Part shown: positions 1,847-29,962 of the stretch, in pieces
Numbering within the stretch: position 1 is the first letter of the stretch
Layout of the letters: each line of letters opens with the position of its first letter
From: a virus
UHGV virus genome: UHGV-0140091
Reading direction: 5' to 3' (one strand)
Length of the DNA: 35,268 nucleotides
Notes under the pieces: model-generated
Told to the model about the DNA's origin: nothing
Databases searched by the model: none
The model's input: the letters and a program-made list of their open reading frames with translations, nothing else
Translations under genes and position numbers: made by a program

Positions 1847-3261
1847 TTACCAGATATAACGGTCAATCATTACTGCTTTGAGCATTACGCTGATTGGGTC
1901 AAACTTCTCACCACCAAGCAGAGCTTTTAAAGTGGCTGGAGAGAAACCAGACACCATTGCTACACCGTTATCCTTAACAGATACTTCGCAAGTGCCATTA
2001 CGGTTTGCTAAGTACCAGAATACCAGTTGTGGCATCTCATATCCAGCTTTTTTGTACTTGCTCTGAATTGCTTCAAAGTTTGTACGACCGTTAGCTCCAT
2101 CAACCTGATTGAACTCCATATCAGAGAAGATGATAAGCTTACTTGGCATATCTTTCTGAGTCAAGTTGTTTCTTTTACCTGTCTCAAGAATACGGTCAAA
2201 AGCTGCTTGTAAGTTAGTTGAGCCATATTCAACGTGTCGCATCACCTGACGATGACGGTTTCGTAAATCACCACTCAGTTCAATGAAGTGAGGGTTTGTT
2301 GAATAAACCATCAACTCATTCTTAAAGCAACCTGTATTACGTTCTGCTACATACAATGCAAGTGAAACACCAATATCAAGAGCAGTAATTGAACCAAAAT
2401 TCACCCAAGACATTGAACTTGAAACATCAGACATACATAGAATGTTTTCACCCTCTGCCATCCAGTTTGGTAGTGCTTTCCACTGCTCATTAGCAACATC
2501 TGCATTACCATACTTAACAGATTTAATCACATCGTATGGGTAAACAGCACCAGCATTAATCTTAGCCTCACCCTTTGATAATGACTCGATGTAAGCTTTG
2601 TAGCGTTCTCCATCTTTACGGTTAAACAGTTTTTGGTAACGTGCAGCAGCAAGTGAAGGAATCTTACTGTAGTCAATCTTACCAAACTCATTAGCAGAGA
2701 TTTTTTGCTCAACTGTATCAGATAGTGCAGACAACAGTGTGCGGTACTCTTTCTCACTCAAGTTTGCAAACTTGCAGAAACGTTTTACAAACTGTTTGTG
2801 ACGTGGTTTTACTCGTGGTAACCACTTAGCTGCTAAACCTGCTGTTGCAGGGTCTAGTAATGCTGCTTCTAAATGTTTGAAGGCATCTGTCTCGAAACGA
2901 GTACCTACAAAGATTTTGAAGTCATCAAAGCGACCAAGCTCTGCAATCTTATCCATAATGCGAAGAACCTGCGTAGGTTCTAAAACTTTATCTTCAATCG
3001 CTTGAAGTAAAACAGTTCGGAAAGCTTTACGCTCACCATACCTTCTCGTACATCTCGCATATGCAGTAAAATACGAACTGCAACATCAACATCCTCATGC
3101 AAAGCTTTGTAGAACAGGTCTGGTAAGATTTCTACATTGCTACGGCTTGAACCAGCAGCTTTGTAAAAGTCTACAAGAGCAGACATTGATGAAGTATGGT
3201 TTGCAGCACCATTTTCAGTTCGACCTGCATGAAGGTGCGCATGTTTAAATAATTCGCTCAT
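1847..3261 (-). pseudogene. vWA-domain protein with N-terminal helical domain (DUF2828-like by recollection; Ro60/TROVE-like architecture), split by a -1 frameshift
   Basis: Two ORFs (2980-3261 and 1847-2956) overlap in different frames. The downstream frame stays open upstream of its ATG to ~3130 and reads YGERKAFRTVLLQAIEDKVLEPTQVLRIMDKI. Joining ...RDVREG to YGERK... at ~3038-3042 restores one ~470-aa protein. C-terminal part has the vWA MIDAS motif DVSSS. Confidence 0.6.
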
Positions 3262-3342: not shown

Positions 3343-3714
3343 TTATTTTTTGAGAGTCGCTACAGCAGAGAACGTTGGTTTGTTATCTGTCTGAGACTGA
3401 CCACCATTATCAGGGGTCTTCTTAGTGTCTGCTGCAATCGCTTTCATCTCACCTGCTGAGTGAGTCATGATGGTTTTACCAGCCTCCATCATCGACTTCA
3501 GGTTTACATCGTCAGTCGTCAAACCGAACTCTGCAAGCTTAGCAGCATCCCTTGTAACAACCGCCTCAAACAACTTTGCAGCAAACTCAGCAGAATTATC
3601 AATGGTCAGTTGAGCTTTTACGAGTGAGCTTTTGTTACGAGAGCCTTTTGGTCTTCCAGATGGGTTTCCAGACTGGCCTTTTTTAAACTGGCCTTTGTTT
3701 GTTCTGTTTTTCAT
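3343..3714 (-). CDS. hypothetical protein with N-terminal GNPSGRPKG basic motif
   Basis: 123-aa ORF with AAGAGG ribosome-binding site upstream of the ATG. Confidence 0.6.
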   Translation of the reverse strand: MKNRTNKGQFKKGQSGNPSGRPKGSRNKSSLVKAQLTIDNSAEFAAKLFEAVVTRDAAKLAEFGLTTDDVNLKSMMEAGKTIMTHSAGEMKAIAADTKKTPDNGGQSQTDNKPTFSAVATLKK

Positions 3715-3810: not shown

Positions 3811-3963
3811 TTAAGTTATCTTCTAAGTATTTATAAGCCTACACCTTGTCAAGTACTTTGTCAACAACTTTTTTAACTTGCAATAGTTCTTGACTTGTTG
3901 TATGGATTACTGTACCATCTTACTTAAAGCTGTAGGTCTGCCTTGTTCTACAAAGGAGACTTA

Positions 3964-4125: not shown

Positions 4126-4340
4126 AAATCGCAGATATTATAGATTTATATCAAACTGCAAAGAGTCATGGCTATATAACCTCAATTGGAAAGAATAGTC
4201 ACTATGATGCTTTGACTGGAATGTATTTCAGGGCAATGGCTCAATCTAGTGAACAACACTTAATGGTTTCTTCCAGTGAGTTTACTTCGTTTCTCTATTG
4301 CAGCAAAATTATAAACCGCAGGAGAACTGAAAAATGTTAA
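4107..4340 (+). CDS. hypothetical protein
   Basis: 77-aa ORF, overlaps neighbours by a few codons in operon fashion. Confidence 0.35.
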   Translation: MCSSQLEIADIIDLYQTAKSHGYITSIGKNSHYDALTGMYFRAMAQSSEQHLMVSSSEFTSFLYCSKIINRRRTEKC

Positions 4341-4924
4341 CAGTAAGTTTTAATTACAATAGTGATGGCTCTGTATCAATTAATTCACCATATGCAAATG
4401 ACCTGCTTAAAGAGCTAGTCAATCAGTGTGATAGAGGTCTTCACTATGTTCAAAATTCTTTTAAACAGAAGACTATTGCTAATAACTTGATGCGTGTAAC
4501 AGTGACGGCATCTAATCCAAATTATGACTTTGATAGTGAAAGTCCGTATTCATTAGTTGCGCTTGGAGAGAGCAGCCAATTCAAACTTGTTTGCCACGAC
4601 TCAGAAACATTCCTTAAGGTATTTTCCAACCTTATCCATAATAATAAGTACAGCTACGTTGATGGTAGTGTAAATTTCTATCCAGCAAACTATACATGTT
4701 TGTTGGTTGATAATATGAGAAAAAGTAAGCAAGAGCCTACGGAAATTTCATTTGATGTGAACTCTAGTCCAGATGCAGAAACAAGTAAGAACTTTGATAT
4801 GAGTTACGCATTGTCACTCAGTAAGAAATCCGAGTTCATTGATTATGTCAATGGATTTGGTTTTAAGTTTGATGAGAGTATGAATCTTAAAAAACTTAAG
4901 AACCTACTTAAGACCAAAGCTTAA
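4334..4924 (+). CDS. hypothetical protein
   Basis: 196-aa ORF in the plus-strand operon. Confidence 0.6.
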   Translation: MLTVSFNYNSDGSVSINSPYANDLLKELVNQCDRGLHYVQNSFKQKTIANNLMRVTVTASNPNYDFDSESPYSLVALGESSQFKLVCHDSETFLKVFSNLIHNNKYSYVDGSVNFYPANYTCLLVDNMRKSKQEPTEISFDVNSSPDAETSKNFDMSYALSLSKKSEFIDYVNGFGFKFDESMNLKKLKNLLKTKA

Positions 4925-4971
4925 GTGTGAATAGGGGCTTATGCCCCTTTAACTATTTATAAGGATATTTA

Positions 4972-5343
4972 ATGAAAGCTAAGAGTGCAAAAGACTTTTA
5001 TTGCTTCCTACAATCCTATATCAATTCCGTGCAAAATGGTGAAAGGTACAACCTTAATGATGTTATCCCAACACCTTTGACATGGAGACTCAGTAAATGG
5101 CCTGAAGAAGATATTACACCAACAATCGAACAGCGTACCTACAAACCTGAAATCAATATTCCAGACTCTGAGAATCTATTATACCCAATGTTCCATATTG
5201 TTGGTCTTGGAAGATTCCTTATGGATATCCAGTATGTAATTGGTAAAGGTTATAAGGTTAAAGGTATTGTCGTTGGTGATGTATCTCCGAATCACAAAGG
5301 TTATTTTAGACTAAACGCACATTTAGAGGCTGAAAAGAAATGA
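4972..5343 (+). CDS. hypothetical protein, paralog of the N-terminal domain of the next gene
   Basis: 123-aa ORF; aligns along its length with residues 1-~110 of the 5340-6224 product (shared RY, LTW/YWPE, YKP, ELLY, F(L)MD(I/L)QY segments). Confidence 0.65.
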   Translation: MKAKSAKDFYCFLQSYINSVQNGERYNLNDVIPTPLTWRLSKWPEEDITPTIEQRTYKPEINIPDSENLLYPMFHIVGLGRFLMDIQYVIGKGYKVKGIVVGDVSPNHKGYFRLNAHLEAEKK

Positions 5344-6224
5344 TTAAAGCAAAGACTTACCCAGACTTCAAAGAGTTTGTGAAGGGCTTCATTGCAAACG
5401 TAAAGGCTGGTAAGAGATATGATTTTAGAACATATCAAGAGGCTATTTTACCACTTACCTATAGTTCATATTGGCCTGAAGCTGATATTGCAGAAGTTGA
5501 GAAGTTTGACTACAAACCAGACTACAAAGTCCCATTTAGTGATGAGTTGCTTTACAGCGTTGGTGCTCAAATGAGAACTTCTGACTTCTTCATGGACTTA
5601 CAATATGCAATTATCAATGGTAAAGATGTTGATACAGTTTATTGTGAATGGCTGGCAAGGGTTAAACCATTCTCAATGTTGAATGCTAAGTTGAAGGATG
5701 CTATCAAGCCACCAGCAATTACTCAGCAGCCAACAGGTCAAACAGTTAATGAGGGTGGCACACTTACTCTAACCATTCTAGCAACTAACGCCACTGGATA
5801 TCAGTGGAAAAAGGATGGTGAGGACATCCCTAGTGCCAATTCTGCAACTTACACAAAACAGTCAGTAGCACCTTCTGACGCTGGTTCATACACTTGTGTT
5901 GTATCTGGAGAAGGTGGAACAAGTGTTACCTCAGATGCAGCAACAGTGACTGTGAATGCACTACCTGTGATTACCAAGCAACCTTCTAACCAGACTATTA
6001 ATGAAGGTGGAAACATCAACTTAGCAGTTACTGCAACAGGTGCAACAGGTTACCAGTGGAAGAAAGGTGAGGAAGATATACTTGATGCAACCGCTGCAAC
6101 TTACACTAAAGAAGGTGCAACCGCTGCTGATTCAGGAAGCTACACCTGTGTAGTTACTGGTGCAGGTGGCTCTGTAACATCTAATGCAGCAACAGTTACA
6201 GTTAACCCAGCAGGGGAGGCATAA
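5340..6224 (+). CDS. hypothetical protein with two C-terminal Ig-like repeats
   Basis: 294 aa. Two ~80-aa tandem repeats, each with NEGG, GYQWKK, ATYTK and GSYTCVV motifs, resembling phage Ig-like (I-set/Big-type) domains. Confidence 0.7.
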   Translation: MIKAKTYPDFKEFVKGFIANVKAGKRYDFRTYQEAILPLTYSSYWPEADIAEVEKFDYKPDYKVPFSDELLYSVGAQMRTSDFFMDLQYAIINGKDVDTVYCEWLARVKPFSMLNAKLKDAIKPPAITQQPTGQTVNEGGTLTLTILATNATGYQWKKDGEDIPSANSATYTKQSVAPSDAGSYTCVVSGEGGTSVTSDAATVTVNALPVITKQPSNQTINEGGNINLAVTATGATGYQWKKGEEDILDATAATYTKEGATAADSGSYTCVVTGAGGSVTSNAATVTVNPAGEA

Positions 6225-6688
6225 TGCAACTCTCAAGAAAAGGTTTAGAGGCTATTAAGTTCTTTGAAGGTCTGAAGTTAGAGGCTTACGAAGACTCTGC
6301 CGGAATCCCAACAATCGGGTATGGGACAATCCGTATTGACGGAAAACCTGTTAAGATGGGTATGAAAATTACTGCTGAACAAGCTGAACAGTATCTTCTT
6401 GCAGATGTTGAGAAGTTCGTTGCAGCAGTGAATAAAGCTATCAAGGTTCCAACTTCTCAGAACGAGTTCGATGCACTTGTAAGTGAAACATACAACATCG
6501 GTATCACAGCTATGCAGGATTCTACATTTATCAAGCGCCACAATGCTGGTAATAAGGTCGGTTGTGCAGAAGCTATGCAGTGGTGGAACAAGGTTACAGT
6601 CAAAGGTAAGAAGGTCACTTCAAACGGCCTGAAAAACAGACGTAGAATGGAAGCTGACATTTATCTTGACAGTGTATATCCAAAGTAA
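6224..6688 (+). CDS. endolysin, phage lysozyme (GH24-like)
   Basis: 154 aa with N-terminal FEG...YED...PTIGYG catalytic-region signature of phage lysozymes; followed by an intrinsic terminator. Confidence 0.85.
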   Translation: MQLSRKGLEAIKFFEGLKLEAYEDSAGIPTIGYGTIRIDGKPVKMGMKITAEQAEQYLLADVEKFVAAVNKAIKVPTSQNEFDALVSETYNIGITAMQDSTFIKRHNAGNKVGCAEAMQWWNKVTVKGKKVTSNGLKNRRRMEADIYLDSVYPK

Positions 6689-6695
6689 TATCTTC

Positions 6696-6722
6696 ATAGG
6701 CTCCTTCGGGAGCCTTTTTTAT
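6696..6722 (+). terminator. rho-independent terminator
   Basis: GGCTCC-TTCG-GGAGCC hairpin followed by TTTTTT. Confidence 0.75.
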
Positions 6723-6739
6723 TTTCTAAGGAGAAAACT

Positions 6740-27238: not shown

Positions 27239-29020
27239 TTAAAGCTGCTTGTCAATATTATTTCGAATATCACCAAGAGTTGTGTAGCCGAACTGCTCAG
27301 AGTCACTAAAGACTAGACGTAAAGCACAAGCTGGATGTTCAAGTGCATCTGCAAAGCTCTGGAACCCATAGCCATCTACAGCTTTCAGGTTTTCACCATC
27401 CCACATAGGTGCTACACCACCAAAAGCAGACTTCTTAACACCACTATCTGTTTTAGGGTCTTTTGCAAGCATAATCTCTTTACCACCAATGCTTGCAAGG
27501 GTTGCTTTGACAGCAAATGCAAAGGTGTCACGAGTCATGTACTGGTAAGTGTAAGAACCTACACCAAACACTACGTTAGAGCTTGCAAAACCCATTTCAT
27601 ACAAACGCTTCAGTATTTCATTTGCACGTTCCAACGTGATAGAGTCGCCATAAATAAGTCCAATATGCTCATCCAGTACTTTAAAGCCTTTAGAGTTAAT
27701 AGTTCCCCCAAAGATGTTGTACAGTGTCTTAATAGCTCCATCAATCTCAGCTACAGGACGTGTTACAACGTTTGCAGAACCAACCATATAAGCATTTTTC
27801 AACATCACTGTATCAGCAACTTCAAAGTCTTCTCTGTCAACAACCATCTCGTAGCCTTCTGACAGTAGCCATCCAGCAATACCATAGTTGATGTTCTCAA
27901 GCTTCATGTTCAGAACAGCATTCAACATTGTGTCACTGGCTTCCAGCTTGCTTAGGTGCTCGTAATAAGCCTTCTTAGCACATTCTAAGTGGATTGCTTT
28001 ATAACCTGTGACAATATGTACAGGGTCTCCAGAGTCAGGGCGAATTACCAGTTTGCCATCACGTTCCATAATTTCTTTACGAAGTGCTGGTAAGATTTCT
28101 GACACAGTTCTCCAGAAGTTATAAGTATCTGAAACAATGCTTGCAATACCTGTTGGGTAAGTTTCTGTTAAGAAACGACGGAAGGTTTGTAACTCACCTT
28201 TAAAGCGTCTTTCTTCTTCAATCAACTCATTACCACCTTCCCAAGCAATGTTTGCACACATTACAGAGTGCTCAGTGGCTGGTACAGAACTACCAATATC
28301 AGAGATTGGGTAGGACTGTCCATAGATTCGTTTAGCCGTGTATACAGCAGGGAAGCTATCAGTCCCTTTAAAGCTGGTTAAGTGACCTACAGCGTTAAAT
28401 GCGTCATCAGTAAAGCCGGACATACCACGCATAGCAAAATCATGGCACTGATAAGGTAAATGTAAGTCATTGTCACAAGTAAGGTCAGCCCACTTCTTAC
28501 AGATGCGTTTGTAATGCAATGCAATAGTTGCAATGGTGCAAGCCTTCCAAATTTCAGCAGAGAAAGCATCTTCCAGATAACCTGCTACCCAATGAAAACC
28601 TGAAACAGTGTTCTGAAAGACAATCATCGGGACACGCATTGGAACAACTGTGCCTTCTTCTACAGCGTATACTTCAACTGGTAGATAACCTAAGTCGTGA
28701 AGTGCTTCCCAATGCTCTCGACCGATAGCATCTTTACCCAGAACACCATTCATGACTTCTAAGATTTCATCAATGGCTTCTTTTTTATCACGTTCAAAGA
28801 AAGTGGCATTCCAGTGGTCTATCAAGTAATCTTTAACAAAACGTTGAATACCAAAAGCCACTACACCGTCAATTGCTAAGGGGCTGTTAAACCATTTGTC
28901 GCTACGTGGTGTCAGATTGAACATCAAGTACTCTGTTGCGCTAGGATACTGGTAAACATGACCAGATTTGTAAGCATCTGCATTTAAACCTGCTGGTACT
29001 GCATAAAGTGATTTAGTCAT
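27239..29020 (-). CDS. nicotinamide phosphoribosyltransferase-family protein (NadV/NAMPT-like; possibly a Namat-type enzyme)
   Basis: 593 aa with NAMPT-like motifs NADAYKSGH...YQYP, HDFAMRG, VPATEHS and IRPDSGDP; longer than typical NAMPT. Confidence 0.8.
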   Translation of the reverse strand: MTKSLYAVPAGLNADAYKSGHVYQYPSATEYLMFNLTPRSDKWFNSPLAIDGVVAFGIQRFVKDYLIDHWNATFFERDKKEAIDEILEVMNGVLGKDAIGREHWEALHDLGYLPVEVYAVEEGTVVPMRVPMIVFQNTVSGFHWVAGYLEDAFSAEIWKACTIATIALHYKRICKKWADLTCDNDLHLPYQCHDFAMRGMSGFTDDAFNAVGHLTSFKGTDSFPAVYTAKRIYGQSYPISDIGSSVPATEHSVMCANIAWEGGNELIEEERRFKGELQTFRRFLTETYPTGIASIVSDTYNFWRTVSEILPALRKEIMERDGKLVIRPDSGDPVHIVTGYKAIHLECAKKAYYEHLSKLEASDTMLNAVLNMKLENINYGIAGWLLSEGYEMVVDREDFEVADTVMLKNAYMVGSANVVTRPVAEIDGAIKTLYNIFGGTINSKGFKVLDEHIGLIYGDSITLERANEILKRLYEMGFASSNVVFGVGSYTYQYMTRDTFAFAVKATLASIGGKEIMLAKDPKTDSGVKKSAFGGVAPMWDGENLKAVDGYGFQSFADALEHPACALRLVFSDSEQFGYTTLGDIRNNIDKQL

Positions 29021-29065
29021 CTTTTAATCTCTCTCAAAATGGGGCTTGGAAGCCCCTATAAAGTT

Positions 29066-29962
29066 TTAATCAAGGTTTGCTACAGTAACTTGGCTATAAT
29101 GTGTTAAGCCACGGTCTTTAGCTTCCCCTAAAGAGTTTGTAGTGTAGATATGGTCAATACCATTGTCAAGCAAGTTTTCAACATCTTTAGAGAAAATACC
29201 ATGAGTTACATAGAGTTCCACACGTTTTGCACCTGCTTCACGAAGATGTTTGGCTGCTTCTATGAAGGTTCGACCTCCATCACAAATATCATCCAGAATC
29301 ATGACAGTTTTATCTGTCAAATCAACATCGTCAAGGATTCGCATACCAGTAATTTCACCAGTCTTAAGGTTACGCACCTTAGACATTGTGATGTATGGTT
29401 TATCCACCTCTTTAGCAGTCTCTGCAATCTTCTTAGCAGCACCTGCATCTGGGGCTACTAAGTAATCAATCAGTGGGTCATTTGCGTAGTGAACTGCAAT
29501 CTCCTTTTGAGGAATACTCTGGAAGCAGTTAAACAGGTTATCTGGAACGTAACTGTGAGGGTCAACTGCACAGACTGCACCAAATCCCATTGCATTTACC
29601 TGTTTAGCAAAAACCTTTAAAGCTGCTGCGTCGCCTTTAAACATGTGACGGTCATAACGTGCATTTGGTAAGTAGTAAAAGATGACAGTCTTTAAAGCAT
29701 AATCATGAGGAATTAAATCATCAATTGCTTCTTTAGCAAGTGCCACAGCAAACAATGTATCCTTATCATAACCTTTTACAATCATAATCACATTGTTGAT
29801 GGATGATGCTGCATAAGCAGTGAAATCAACAAACTCTGGAGAAAAGTGTCCACCAATCTCACCAGAAGGAAATTGGATGATGTTAAACTCTTCTTCATGA
29901 GTTCCTTTAGTTGGCGAATGAACTGTAACACGGATAGATGTTTTCATAGTTTTCTCTCTCAA
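29066..29962 (-). CDS. ribose-phosphate pyrophosphokinase-family protein (Prs-like; possibly an Adps-type enzyme)
   Basis: 298 aa with VIFYYLPNARYDRH (cf. Prs IPYFGYARQDRR) and PRPP-binding loop VMILDDICDGGRTF...GAKRV...THGIFS. True start may be the second ATG (MKTSIRV). Confidence 0.8.
   Translation of the reverse strand: MREKTMKTSIRVTVHSPTKGTHEEEFNIIQFPSGEIGGHFSPEFVDFTAYAASSINNVIMIVKGYDKDTLFAVALAKEAIDDLIPHDYALKTVIFYYLPNARYDRHMFKGDAAALKVFAKQVNAMGFGAVCAVDPHSYVPDNLFNCFQSIPQKEIAVHYANDPLIDYLVAPDAGAAKKIAETAKEVDKPYITMSKVRNLKTGEITGMRILDDVDLTDKTVMILDDICDGGRTFIEAAKHLREAGAKRVELYVTHGIFSKDVENLLDNGIDHIYTTNSLGEAKDRGLTHYSQVTVANLD

What the first reader, a model, noticed from the sequence alone, without database searches (positions are those of the whole stretch)
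4972..6224. Tandem paralogs, the second one extended by two Ig-like repeats
The 123-aa product aligns with the first ~110 residues of the next product, indicating a tandem duplication. The second gene then adds two ~80-aa repeats with GYQWKK and GSYTCVV motifs typical of Ig-like folds. Phage Ig-like domains usually decorate virion proteins and mediate surface adhesion, yet this pair sits in an early-looking block next to the endolysin.
Basis: seen in the sequence. Interest (0 to 1): 0.5.

Follow-up and report, generated by a model that had tools for sequence, protein, structure and literature searches.

The report
Capsid decoration gene plus anchor-only paralog
The longer gene is the already-solved Hoc-like protein that decorates the head of Felix O1-type phages (mislabelled "tail protein"), and the short gene in front of it is a conserved copy of only its capsid-anchoring domain whose role nobody has described.

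Summary
The window is a Felixounavirus, 99.8% identical to Escherichia phage vB_EcoM-Ro111lw. ORF A (4972-5343, 123 aa) aligns with the first ~100 residues of ORF B (5340-6224, 294 aa) at 37% identity, E=2e-16. B carries two I-set Ig repeats that are 65% identical.

B is not new. It is the orthologue of Bas63 Hex-Dec (PDB 9NCF chain S) and Sf14 gp20 (9C2D chain S). [quoted passage not shown] The "tail protein" label is a legacy error. The pair is transcribed late in Felix O1, not early. A programmed frameshift is excluded.

The part I found described nowhere is A, a CapBD-only paralog.
- It arose by tandem duplication inside Ounavirinae; Erwinia and Hafnia relatives lack it.
- It is under purifying selection (dN/dS 0.12).
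- It is predicted to keep the CapBD fold.
- The two capsid-contact arginines are replaced.
- It is absent from two published virion proteomes and two cryo-EM maps.
- It was lost once, in a viable sub-clade.

Most likely it is a late, non-essential, non-virion accessory factor that still acts on capsid hexamers or on Hex-Dec. This is inferred, not shown. Interest is moderate to low.

The parts
4933..4948 (+). GC-rich hairpin (A-GGGGC-TTAT-GCCCC-T) followed by TTTAA, between the upstream 196-aa ORF and gene A. It is terminator-like and marks the unit boundary.
   Evidence: Read from the sequence. RNA fold -14.4 kcal/mol, z = -2.2. Retained in phages that have lost gene A. Not listed by the terminator scan because the T-run is short.
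4961..4965 (+). AAGGA Shine-Dalgarno sequence of gene A, 6 nt before the ATG
   Evidence: Read directly from the sequence.
4972..5343 (+). Gene A: 123-aa CapBD-only paralog of the hexamer decoration protein (phrog_4463, 'unknown function'; Felix O1 ORF37, Sf14 gp21, VpaE1 ORF40c)
   Evidence: ORF. 37% identical to B residues 1-100, E=2e-16. AF2 model pLDDT 76.6 matches only the CapBD chains 9c2d_S and 9ncf_S (TM 0.68). dN/dS 0.12. Present in 233 of 253 matching phage records.
5326..5343 (+). Coupling junction: GAGG Shine-Dalgarno sequence (5326-5329) inside the end of A, then ATGA (5340-5343) where B's start overlaps A's stop
   Evidence: GAGG and the junction are conserved in nine phages. B's frame is closed at TGA 5331-5333.
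5340..5705 (+). Gene B, capsid-binding domain (CapBD, aa 1-122), with contact arginines R79 (5574-5576) and R107 (5658-5660)
   Evidence: Nearly identical to the modelled part of Bas63 Hex-Dec (9ncf_S) and Sf14 gp20 (9c2d_S). R79/R107 contacts to MCP Asp221 are from PMC11821841. Both arginines are invariant in all B orthologues. dN/dS 0.04.
5706..5960 (+). Gene B, Ig-like repeat 1 (I-set/Ig_3 type, aa 123-207)
   Evidence: Pfam Ig_3, Ig_2 and I-set. tblastn/BLASTP between repeats 65% identical.
5961..6224 (+). Gene B, Ig-like repeat 2 (aa 208-294) and stop codon
   Evidence: The number of such repeats is 1-4 among relatives.
6224..6688 (+). Endolysin (T4-type lysozyme family). Its start overlaps B's stop (TAATG). 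Third gene of the compact unit.
   Evidence: Pfam Phage_lysozyme 6.6e-41 and phrog_7 endolysin.
6698..6725 (+). Intrinsic-terminator-like hairpin (AGGCTCC-TTCG-GGAGCCT) plus T-run that closes the A-B-lysin unit
   Evidence: Terminator scan.

Best explanation
Gene B (shown). Gene B is the Felixounavirus hexamer decoration protein, called Hex-Dec in Bas63 and gp20 in Sf14. It is a monomer. Its N-terminal ~120-aa capsid-binding domain plugs into the acidic centre of the 60 pentamer-proximal hexamers of the T=9 head, partly through Arg79 and Arg107. Its C-terminal string of I-set Ig domains (two here) projects outward like T4 Hoc, presumably for weak adhesion to surfaces, mucus or cells.

Origin of gene A (shown). 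Gene A is a tandem duplicate of only the capsid-binding domain. The duplication happened within Ounavirinae, after the split from the Erwinia (Kolesnikvirus) and Hafnia phage lineages. A then diverged faster than B but stayed under purifying selection. It is translationally coupled to B. Its Felix O1 orthologue is expressed late together with B's orthologue.

Function of gene A (inferred, about 0.35 for this specific mechanism). A is a non-essential, late accessory protein that is not part of the mature virion. It still uses the CapBD fold to dock transiently on major-capsid-protein hexamers, with altered specificity because both contact arginines are replaced. Candidate targets are unexpanded procapsids or the hexamers that Hex-Dec does not occupy. 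In this way it would modulate head maturation or where Hex-Dec binds.
For: B identity:
- phmmer against PDB gives 9ncf_S at E=4.6e-245 and 9c2d_S at E=1.1e-182, with a near-identical CapBD.
- The cryo-EM descriptions are in PMC11821841 and PMC12609058.
- Felix O1 gp36 was found in CsCl-purified virions at 44% coverage.
- Pfam shows two Ig domains.
- R79 and R107 are invariant in B.

A is a CapBD paralog:
- BLASTP E=2e-16.
- phmmer of A hits only 9ncf_S and 9c2d_S in the PDB.
- The AF2 model (pLDDT 76.6) matches only those two chains, TM 0.68.

Timing of the duplication:
- Erwinia phage EAP4 and Hafnia phage Zyzzx have the same order (~200-aa ORF, CapBD gene, lysin) but no A.
- The A clade has 100% bootstrap support. 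Four of the six outgroup proteins are clearly closer to B (about 35% identity) than to A (about 26%); the other two, P0102 and P0103, are roughly equidistant.

A is functional:
- dN/dS is 0.12 over pairs with mean dS about 1.1.
- The A-B-lysin order is kept in a metagenomic phage whose A is only 44% identical.
- The two best-conserved stretches of A (YPMFHIVGLGxFLMDIQ and SPxHKGYFRLNA) align with the B segments that carry R79 and R107.

Late co-expression: Felix O1 ORF36 and ORF37 are both maximal at 60 min. The ATGA overlap and the GAGG Shine-Dalgarno sequence are conserved.

Not in virions:
- A is absent from the 17 Felix O1 virion proteins.
- The 22 VpaE1 virion proteins do not appear to include it: ORF40c is left as 'hypothetical', and the only named additions to the Felix O1 set are gp54, gp58 and gp68.
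- The Bas63 paper reports no density on other hexamers; the Sf14 paper models gp20 only on the pentamer-proximal (quasi-3-fold) hexamers.

Non-essential: one inherited deletion scar is shared by REP5, Z31 and CECAV_041.
Against: Nothing here shows that A binds capsids at all.
- The replaced contact residues (Gly for R79; Asn, Gln or His for R107) could equally mean loss of capsid binding and a new partner.
- The evidence that A is absent from virions is indirect. The Felix O1 list used a cut-off of at least 25% coverage. VpaE1 Table S2 is held only as an image. Sf14 raw MS data could not be read.
- Icosahedral averaging would weaken a monomer sitting on a true 3-fold axis.
- The outgroup phages and the A-less sub-clade do without A.
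- RT-PCR timing comes from one 2010 study in Felix O1, not from this phage.
Confidence: 0.8

Rival explanations
1. A is a genuine but overlooked virion component. It is an Ig-less cap that occupies the 20 hexamers on the icosahedral 3-fold axes, which Hex-Dec does not bind. Its changed contact residues match the shifted Asp221 geometry there.
For: A keeps the full CapBD fold. It is made late, just upstream of B. Its most conserved segments align with B's capsid-contact segments but carry different residues. [quoted passage not shown] A monomer on a 3-fold axis is smeared by icosahedral averaging (inference).
Against: A is not among the virion proteins of Felix O1 or VpaE1, although smaller and rarer proteins were detected. 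The Bas63 authors state that no density was observed on the other hexamers. A is dispensable in a natural sub-clade.
Confidence: 0.12
2. A works on Hex-Dec rather than on the capsid. As a homologous domain made from a translationally coupled gene, it pairs with B's CapBD. It would act as a chaperone or holdase that keeps B soluble, or delays its binding until heads have expanded, and then be released.
For: The ATGA coupling and conserved gene order are typical of partner proteins. A is absent from virions. The CapBD has two pseudo-symmetric lobes (PMC12609058), a geometry that can support homotypic contacts (inference).
Against: Phages without A (Kolesnikvirus, Hafnia phage, the REP5 clade) still encode apparently functional Hex-Dec genes. 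No evidence of A-B interaction exists.
Confidence: 0.15
3. A has taken on a function unrelated to capsids or Hex-Dec, using the CapBD fold as a scaffold for a new partner, for example a host or defence-related target.
For: A has diverged faster than B, and both capsid-contact arginines are replaced. It is absent from virions and maps. Its net charge varies between lineages, pI 5.1-9.1.
Against: A is co-expressed late with B's orthologue in Felix O1 and is translationally coupled to B. Its best-conserved segments align with B's capsid-contact segments, which suggests a retained interface at the same site. No candidate alternative partner emerged from any search here.
Confidence: 0.25
4. A is a functionless leftover of the duplication that is slowly decaying.
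For: It was lost in one sub-clade, with the remnant accumulating indels. It is absent from the outgroups. Its constraint is weaker than that on B's CapBD (0.12 against 0.04).
Against: dN/dS of 0.12 with dS above 1 means long-term purifying selection. The reading frame is intact, at 122-124 aa, in Felixounavirus, Mooglevirus, Suspvirus and a 44%-identical metagenomic lineage. Sixty-three columns are invariant across the family.
Confidence: 0.05
5. A and B are joined by a programmed -1 frameshift into a fusion protein.
For: B is in the -1 frame relative to A in eight of nine phages, and the junction is A-rich (GAA AAG AAA TGA).
Against: A stop closes B's frame 0-2 codons before its ATG in most phages (0 in KMM2, 4 in SUSP1). 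The offset is +1 in SUSP1. There is no conserved X XXY YYZ heptamer. A GAGG Shine-Dalgarno sequence is conserved upstream of B's ATG. The solved chains and the 31.6-kDa MS identification correspond to B alone. Phages lacking A still express the B gene from the same junction.
Confidence: 0.02
6. B is a tail protein, as annotated in most GenBank records.
For: 'Tail protein' annotation in most relatives. phrog_3995 is labelled 'tail protein', and the Ig part hits 'major tail protein' PHROGs.
Against: The label derives from Ig-domain similarity to the HK97 major tail subunit (AF320576 annotation). Two cryo-EM structures place the orthologue at hexamer centres of the capsid, and the Bas63 paper states explicitly that the annotation is incorrect.
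Confidence: 0.01

Closest known systems
Bas63 Hex-Dec (PDB 9NCF chain S) and Sf14 gp20 (PDB 9C2D/9C3A chain S): Ounavirinae hexamer decoration proteins
   Same: B is a direct orthologue. Its CapBD is almost identical to the Bas63 chain and clearly orthologous to the Sf14 chain (full-length E 4.6e-245 and 1.1e-182). It has the same I-set repeats, the same position next to the endolysin, and the same conserved R79 and R107. A shares the CapBD fold and about 35% sequence identity with them.
   Different: B has two Ig repeats, against four in Bas63 and three in Sf14. A has no Ig repeats, lacks both contact arginines, and its orthologues have not been seen in virions or maps.
[quoted passage not shown]
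   Same: One monomer per hexamer centre, with a string of Ig-like domains projecting from a small capsid-binding domain. The Ig part of B hits Hoc-like PHROGs (phrog_2973 at 8.9e-28, phrog_4069 at 2.2e-25). The proposed adhesion or aggregation role is the same.
   Different: The domain order is reversed: in Hoc the capsid-binding domain is C-terminal. The Ounavirinae CapBD is larger, topologically distinct and pseudo-C2 symmetric (PMC12609058). I know of no anchor-only paralog for Hoc (own knowledge, not searched exhaustively).
T5 pb10 decoration protein (PDB 5LXK, 8ZVI)
   Same: Same order: N-terminal capsid-binding domain followed by a C-terminal Ig-like domain, bound at hexamer centres. The Ig domain of B matches it (E about 1e-11).
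   Different: The match covers only the Ig part (B residues 128-207). The pb10 anchoring domain shows no sequence or Foldseek similarity to A or to B's CapBD. pb10 has one Ig domain.
Single-gene CapBD proteins of Erwinia phage EAP4 (Kolesnikvirus) and Hafnia phage Zyzzx
   Same: Homologous CapBD at the same genomic position, between the ~200-aa ORF and the lysin.
   Different: There is one gene only and no A-type copy. The display domains differ (Big_2-like rather than I-set), which shows that the anchor is the constant module and the outward part is exchangeable.

Membership tests
Ounavirinae Hex-Dec / gp20 hexamer decoration protein (tested on gene B) | N-terminal CapBD homologous to the solved capsid-bound domain | tested here: met
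   phmmer against PDB: 9ncf_S E=4.6e-245 and 9c2d_S E=1.1e-182, aligned from residue 1.
Ounavirinae Hex-Dec / gp20 hexamer decoration protein (tested on gene B) | One to four C-terminal I-set type Ig-like repeats | tested here: met
   Pfam Ig_3, Ig_2 and I-set, two stretches each. The two repeats are 65% identical.
Ounavirinae Hex-Dec / gp20 hexamer decoration protein (tested on gene B) | Capsid-contact arginines R79 and R107 (salt bridges to MCP Asp221 in Sf14) | tested here: met
   Both are present in the window protein and invariant in nine B orthologues. The contacts are described in PMC11821841.
Ounavirinae Hex-Dec / gp20 hexamer decoration protein (tested on gene B) | Physical presence on capsid hexamer centres | not testable with these tools
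   Shown for orthologues only: cryo-EM 9C2D and 9NCF and MS of Felix O1 gp36 and Sf14 gp20.
Ounavirinae Hex-Dec / gp20 hexamer decoration protein (tested on gene A) | CapBD fold and sequence homology | tested here: met
   BLASTP E=2e-16. phmmer against 9ncf_S gives 6.1e-12. Foldseek TM 0.68, prob 1.0, to 9c2d_S and 9ncf_S only.
Ounavirinae Hex-Dec / gp20 hexamer decoration protein (tested on gene A) | C-terminal Ig-like repeats | tested here: not met
   The protein ends after the CapBD (123 aa). No Pfam hit. All family members are 110-124 aa.
Ounavirinae Hex-Dec / gp20 hexamer decoration protein (tested on gene A) | Capsid-contact arginines R79 and R107 | tested here: not met
   The aligned positions are Gly and Asn/Gln/His in the A orthologues of the described genera. 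The divergent L013 copy has Arg at the second position.
Ounavirinae Hex-Dec / gp20 hexamer decoration protein (tested on gene A) | Presence in purified virions | not testable with these tools
   Literature on orthologues is negative but indirect. A is not in the Felix O1 list. It is not flagged as structural in VpaE1. No extra hexamer density is reported.
T4 Hoc family | N-terminal Ig domains followed by a C-terminal capsid-binding domain homologous to Hoc domain 4 | tested here: not met
   The order is reversed in B. Similarity to Hoc-like PHROGs is confined to the Ig region, residues 120-292. The Bas63 paper reports that the CapBD is topologically distinct. B works like Hoc but is not a Hoc orthologue.
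Programmed -1 frameshift gene pair | Conserved slippery heptamer in an overlap where the downstream frame is open and lacks its own initiation signals | tested here: not met
   The downstream frame is closed 0-2 codons before the ATG in most phages. The frame offset is not conserved. GAGG Shine-Dalgarno sequence and ATG are conserved.
Phage major tail protein (as annotated) | Homology to a tail tube or major tail fold outside the Ig domain | tested here: not met
   Hits to 'major tail protein' PHROGs cover only the Ig region, residues 96-208. The N-terminal domain matches only the capsid-bound chains.

The most novel reading that the evidence does not exclude
The anchor-only paralog A is a second ligand of capsid hexamers. 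It either sits on the 20 icosahedral 3-fold hexamers, where icosahedral averaging would hide it, or transiently masks hexamers during assembly. It would then be the factor that restricts Hex-Dec to 60 of the 80 hexamers. That would be an example of a decoration protein's site selection being set by a duplicated, display-less copy of its own anchor.
Probability: 0.15. Interest if true: 0.6.

Novelty: new variant of a known kind. Interest (0 to 1): 0.35.

Why it matters
The main gene needs no new explanation, and the useful outcome there is corrective. In this genome, as in most Felix O1-like records, "tail protein" should read "Hoc-like hexamer decoration protein, two Ig domains". The gene pair is late, not early.

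The residual point of interest is the conserved anchor-only copy. Both cryo-EM papers leave open why Hex-Dec binds only the pentamer-proximal hexamers and what the decoration is for. A co-expressed protein that has the same docking fold but different contact residues gives a direct experimental handle on that question: knock it out, or compare the natural A-less clade.

The CapBD also appears to be a compact, very lineage-restricted anchor, with only 12 clusters at 50% identity among 1.84 billion proteins. It carries interchangeable display modules, which is relevant to phage-display engineering on therapeutic Felix O1-type phages.

Tried and rejected
- First AF2 model of A, from a shallow A-only alignment: pLDDT 59.9, too weak to rely on. 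Replaced by the A+B alignment model.
- Tandem Repeats Finder did not detect the two Ig repeats at the DNA level, because they are too diverged. Protein comparison was needed.
- The word-indexed homologue search with B's CapBD returned only close relatives, mostly 210-aa one-Ig forms. The exhaustive profile search was needed for distant members.
- The sigma-70 promoter scan gave no more sites than shuffled sequence.
- The motif TATTTATAAG upstream of A recurs exactly once more, at 3828, but is not above chance when one mismatch is allowed. I make no promoter claim.
- The virion MS tables could not be fully checked. VpaE1 Table S2 is stored only as an image. The Sf14 supplement says nothing about its own gp21. 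The Bas63 supplement and Doore et al. 2018 are not held. The UAB_Phi87 paper has no proteomics.
- No further CapBD or Ig copies occur elsewhere in the window.
- Considered and rejected: a programmed frameshift, a tail-protein function, and A as a decaying pseudogene.
Full report
**Observation**

The window is a Felix O1-type myovirus. Positions 4300-6700 are 99.8% identical to Escherichia phage vB_EcoM-Ro111lw and about 95.6% identical to Salmonella phage Felix O1. ORF A (4972..5343, 123 aa) and ORF B (5340..6224, 294 aa) exist as described and overlap in ATGA. BLASTP of A against B gives 37% identity over 101 residues, E=2e-16. Each protein also hits the other's PHROG family. B carries two Ig-like domains of the Ig_3/Ig_2/I-set type, at about aa 124-205 and 209-290. 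They are 65% identical to each other, E=8e-36. The endolysin follows with a one-base overlap.

**What B is**

B matches two solved chains over its whole length. One is 9ncf_S, 'Immunoglobulin-like domain protein' of phage Bas63 (E=4.6e-245). The other is 9c2d_S/9c3a, 'tail protein' of Shigella phage Sf14 (E=1.1e-182).

The corresponding papers (PMC12609058, PMC11821841) show that this protein, called Hex-Dec or gp20, is a Hoc-like capsid decoration protein.
- One monomer sits in the centre of each pentamer-proximal hexamer of the T=9 head.
- The Ig-like repeats extend outward and are too mobile to resolve; there are one to four in different felixounaviruses.
- In Sf14, Arg79 and Arg107 form salt bridges with Asp221 of three capsid subunits. 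Both arginines are present here (codons 5574-5576 and 5658-5660) and invariant in all B orthologues examined.
- The Bas63 authors state that the widespread 'tail protein' annotation is wrong and that the gene lies more than 10 kb outside the structural module.
- Felix O1 gp36, the orthologue, was found in CsCl-purified virions at 44% coverage.

The label goes back to Ig-domain similarity with the HK97 major tail subunit (AF320576 annotation). B is therefore an already known protein, here in its two-Ig form.

**'Early-looking block' and the frameshift idea**

The neighbourhood does look non-structural. There is a tRNA cluster at 329-1681, followed by DUF2828/DUF7788 and DUF5681 genes. The opposite strand carries NAMPT, PRPP synthetase, NrdD and a macro-domain gene. 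However, RT-PCR in Felix O1 places ORF36 and ORF37 (the B and A orthologues) among the genes maximally expressed at 60 min, together with morphogenesis genes 72, 73, 76 and 77. ORF35 (lysin) and ORF38 peak at 25 min (PMC3185647).

A, B and the lysin form a compact unit between a GC-rich hairpin (4933-4948) and a strong terminator-like site (6698-6725).

A programmed frameshift is excluded.
- In nine phages, B's frame is closed by a stop codon 0-4 codons before its ATG: 0 in KMM2, 1-2 in seven, and 4 in SUSP1.
- The frame offset differs in SUSP1.
- No slippery heptamer is conserved.
- GAGG precedes the ATG in all nine.
- Phages that have lost A keep the same junction in front of B.

**What A is**

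A is the CapBD alone. By sequence it hits only 9ncf_S and 9c2d_S in the PDB (E=6e-12 and 2e-11). An AlphaFold2 model built on a joint A+B alignment (pLDDT 76.6, pTM 0.75) matches only those two chains by Foldseek (TM 0.68, probability 1.0).

Orthologues of A are 110-124 aa and 67-98% identical in the protein search. In the phage collection, 233 of 253 matching records cover at least 80% of A, spanning Felixounavirus, Mooglevirus and Suspvirus, and nearly always directly upstream of B. A metagenomic 87-kb phage contig keeps the order 195-aa ORF, A, B, lysozyme although its A is only 44% identical; its B CapBD is 59% identical.

More distant Ounavirinae have the same synteny but one CapBD gene and no A. 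These are Erwinia phage EAP4 (Kolesnikvirus; 204 aa, CapBD plus a Big_2-like domain) and Hafnia phage Zyzzx (321 aa).

In a neighbour-joining tree the A sequences form a 100%-supported clade. Four of the six outgroup proteins are clearly closer to B (about 35% identity) than to A (about 26%); P0102 and P0103 are roughly equidistant. A is therefore the derived, faster-evolving copy from a tandem duplication inside the subfamily.

An exhaustive profile search of 1.84 billion representatives found only 12 clusters. The CapBD is thus a very lineage-restricted anchor that carries interchangeable outward modules: I-set repeats, Big_2-like domains or a low-complexity tail.

**Is A functional, and what might it do?**

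Nei-Gojobori dN/dS over nine phages is 0.12 for A, 0.04 for B's CapBD and 0.12 for B's first Ig domain, with mean dS about 1.1. A has therefore been maintained by selection, less strictly than the capsid-bound domain.

The two segments of B that carry the contact arginines align with the two best-conserved segments of A, YPMFHIVGLGxFLMDIQ and SPxHKGYFRLNA. In A the arginines are replaced by Gly and by Asn, Gln or His. This pattern suggests a retained interface with changed specificity rather than decay.

Against a structural role:
- The A orthologue is not among the 17 Felix O1 virion proteins.
- The 22 VpaE1 virion proteins do not appear to include it. Its ORF40c remains 'hypothetical', and the only named additions to the Felix O1 set are gp54, gp58 and gp68.
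- The Bas63 paper reports no density on the other hexamers, and the Sf14 paper models gp20 only on the pentamer-proximal hexamers.
- A is also dispensable. REP5, Z31 and CECAV_041 (USA, China, Spain) share one deletion scar in which the start codon and about 220 bp are gone and further indels are accumulating.

Neither structural paper mentions this gene or uses the word 'paralog'. No other paper on it turned up.

**Best reading and rivals**

Shown: B is the known Hoc-like hexamer decoration protein. A is a tandem, anchor-only duplicate that is conserved, predicted to keep the fold, and translationally coupled to B. Its Felix O1 orthologue is co-expressed late.

Inferred: A is a late, non-essential, non-virion accessory factor that still docks on capsid hexamers, possibly in another maturation state or on another hexamer class, or otherwise modulates Hex-Dec placement. 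I give this about 0.35.

Rivals:
- A function unrelated to capsids or Hex-Dec (0.25).
- A partner or chaperone of B (0.15).
- A hidden occupant of the 20 three-fold hexamers (0.12).
- A functionless remnant (0.05).
- A frameshift fusion (0.02).
- B as a tail protein (0.01).

The decisive tests are re-mining the Sf14 MS data for gp21, focused asymmetric classification of the 3-fold hexamers, multimer prediction, and an A knockout or imaging of a natural A-less phage.

**Novelty and score**

What remains is a modest, apparently undescribed variant: a display-less paralog of a decoration protein's anchor. That is worth a note and a simple experiment, but it is not surprising enough to rank high. 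Interest 0.35.

Noticed in passing
window 4334-4924 (196-aa ORF, phrog_4034): An ORF of unknown function, about 195-207 aa, sits directly upstream of the CapBD gene(s) in every lineage examined, including the outgroups that lack gene A (Erwinia phage EAP4, Hafnia phage Zyzzx, metagenomic contig L013). It is as syntenic with Hex-Dec as the endolysin is. It has no Pfam hit above threshold.
   Followed up: partly
L015 698-1270 (Shigella phage Z31): In Z31, which also lacks gene A, the Hex-Dec gene carries an in-frame stop after residue 134 and an internal deletion in the Ig domain. That leaves a naturally anchor-only B, or else it is a sequencing error. The related CECAV_041 has a one-Ig, 210-aa form. 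Many metagenomic relatives are also 210 aa.
   Followed up: partly
window 3828-3837 and 4954-4963: The exact 10-mer TATTTATAAG occurs only twice in 35 kb. Both copies are intergenic and upstream of + strand genes: one in the divergent region that starts the + block, the other just before gene A. It is retained with small changes in phages that lost A. Allowing one mismatch, it is not above chance, so it is only a candidate promoter element.
   Followed up: partly
window 1847-2956 (-) and 3343-3714 (-): A DUF2828/DUF7788 protein (annotated 'RNA-binding protein' in Felix O1) lies directly downstream of a nine-gene tRNA cluster (329-1681), next to a DUF5681 gene. This ORF is 369 aa, whereas the Felix O1 orthologue is annotated at 1416 nt (about 471 aa), so the gene may be shorter or split here.
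   Followed up: no
window 18956-19735 (-): A 259-aa protein with a Macro domain (ADP-ribose binding/hydrolase; Pfam E=2.3e-6) lies among the small genes of the minus-strand block, near the NAMPT and PRPP-synthetase (NAD salvage) genes at 27239-29962. This could be relevant to countering NAD-depleting or ADP-ribosylating defences.
   Followed up: no
P0103 (153 aa): A distant CapBD homologue ends in a Lys/Ser/Glu-rich low-complexity tail instead of any Ig domain. It is another display-less form of the anchor, unrelated to the A clade. Its context was not examined.
   Followed up: no
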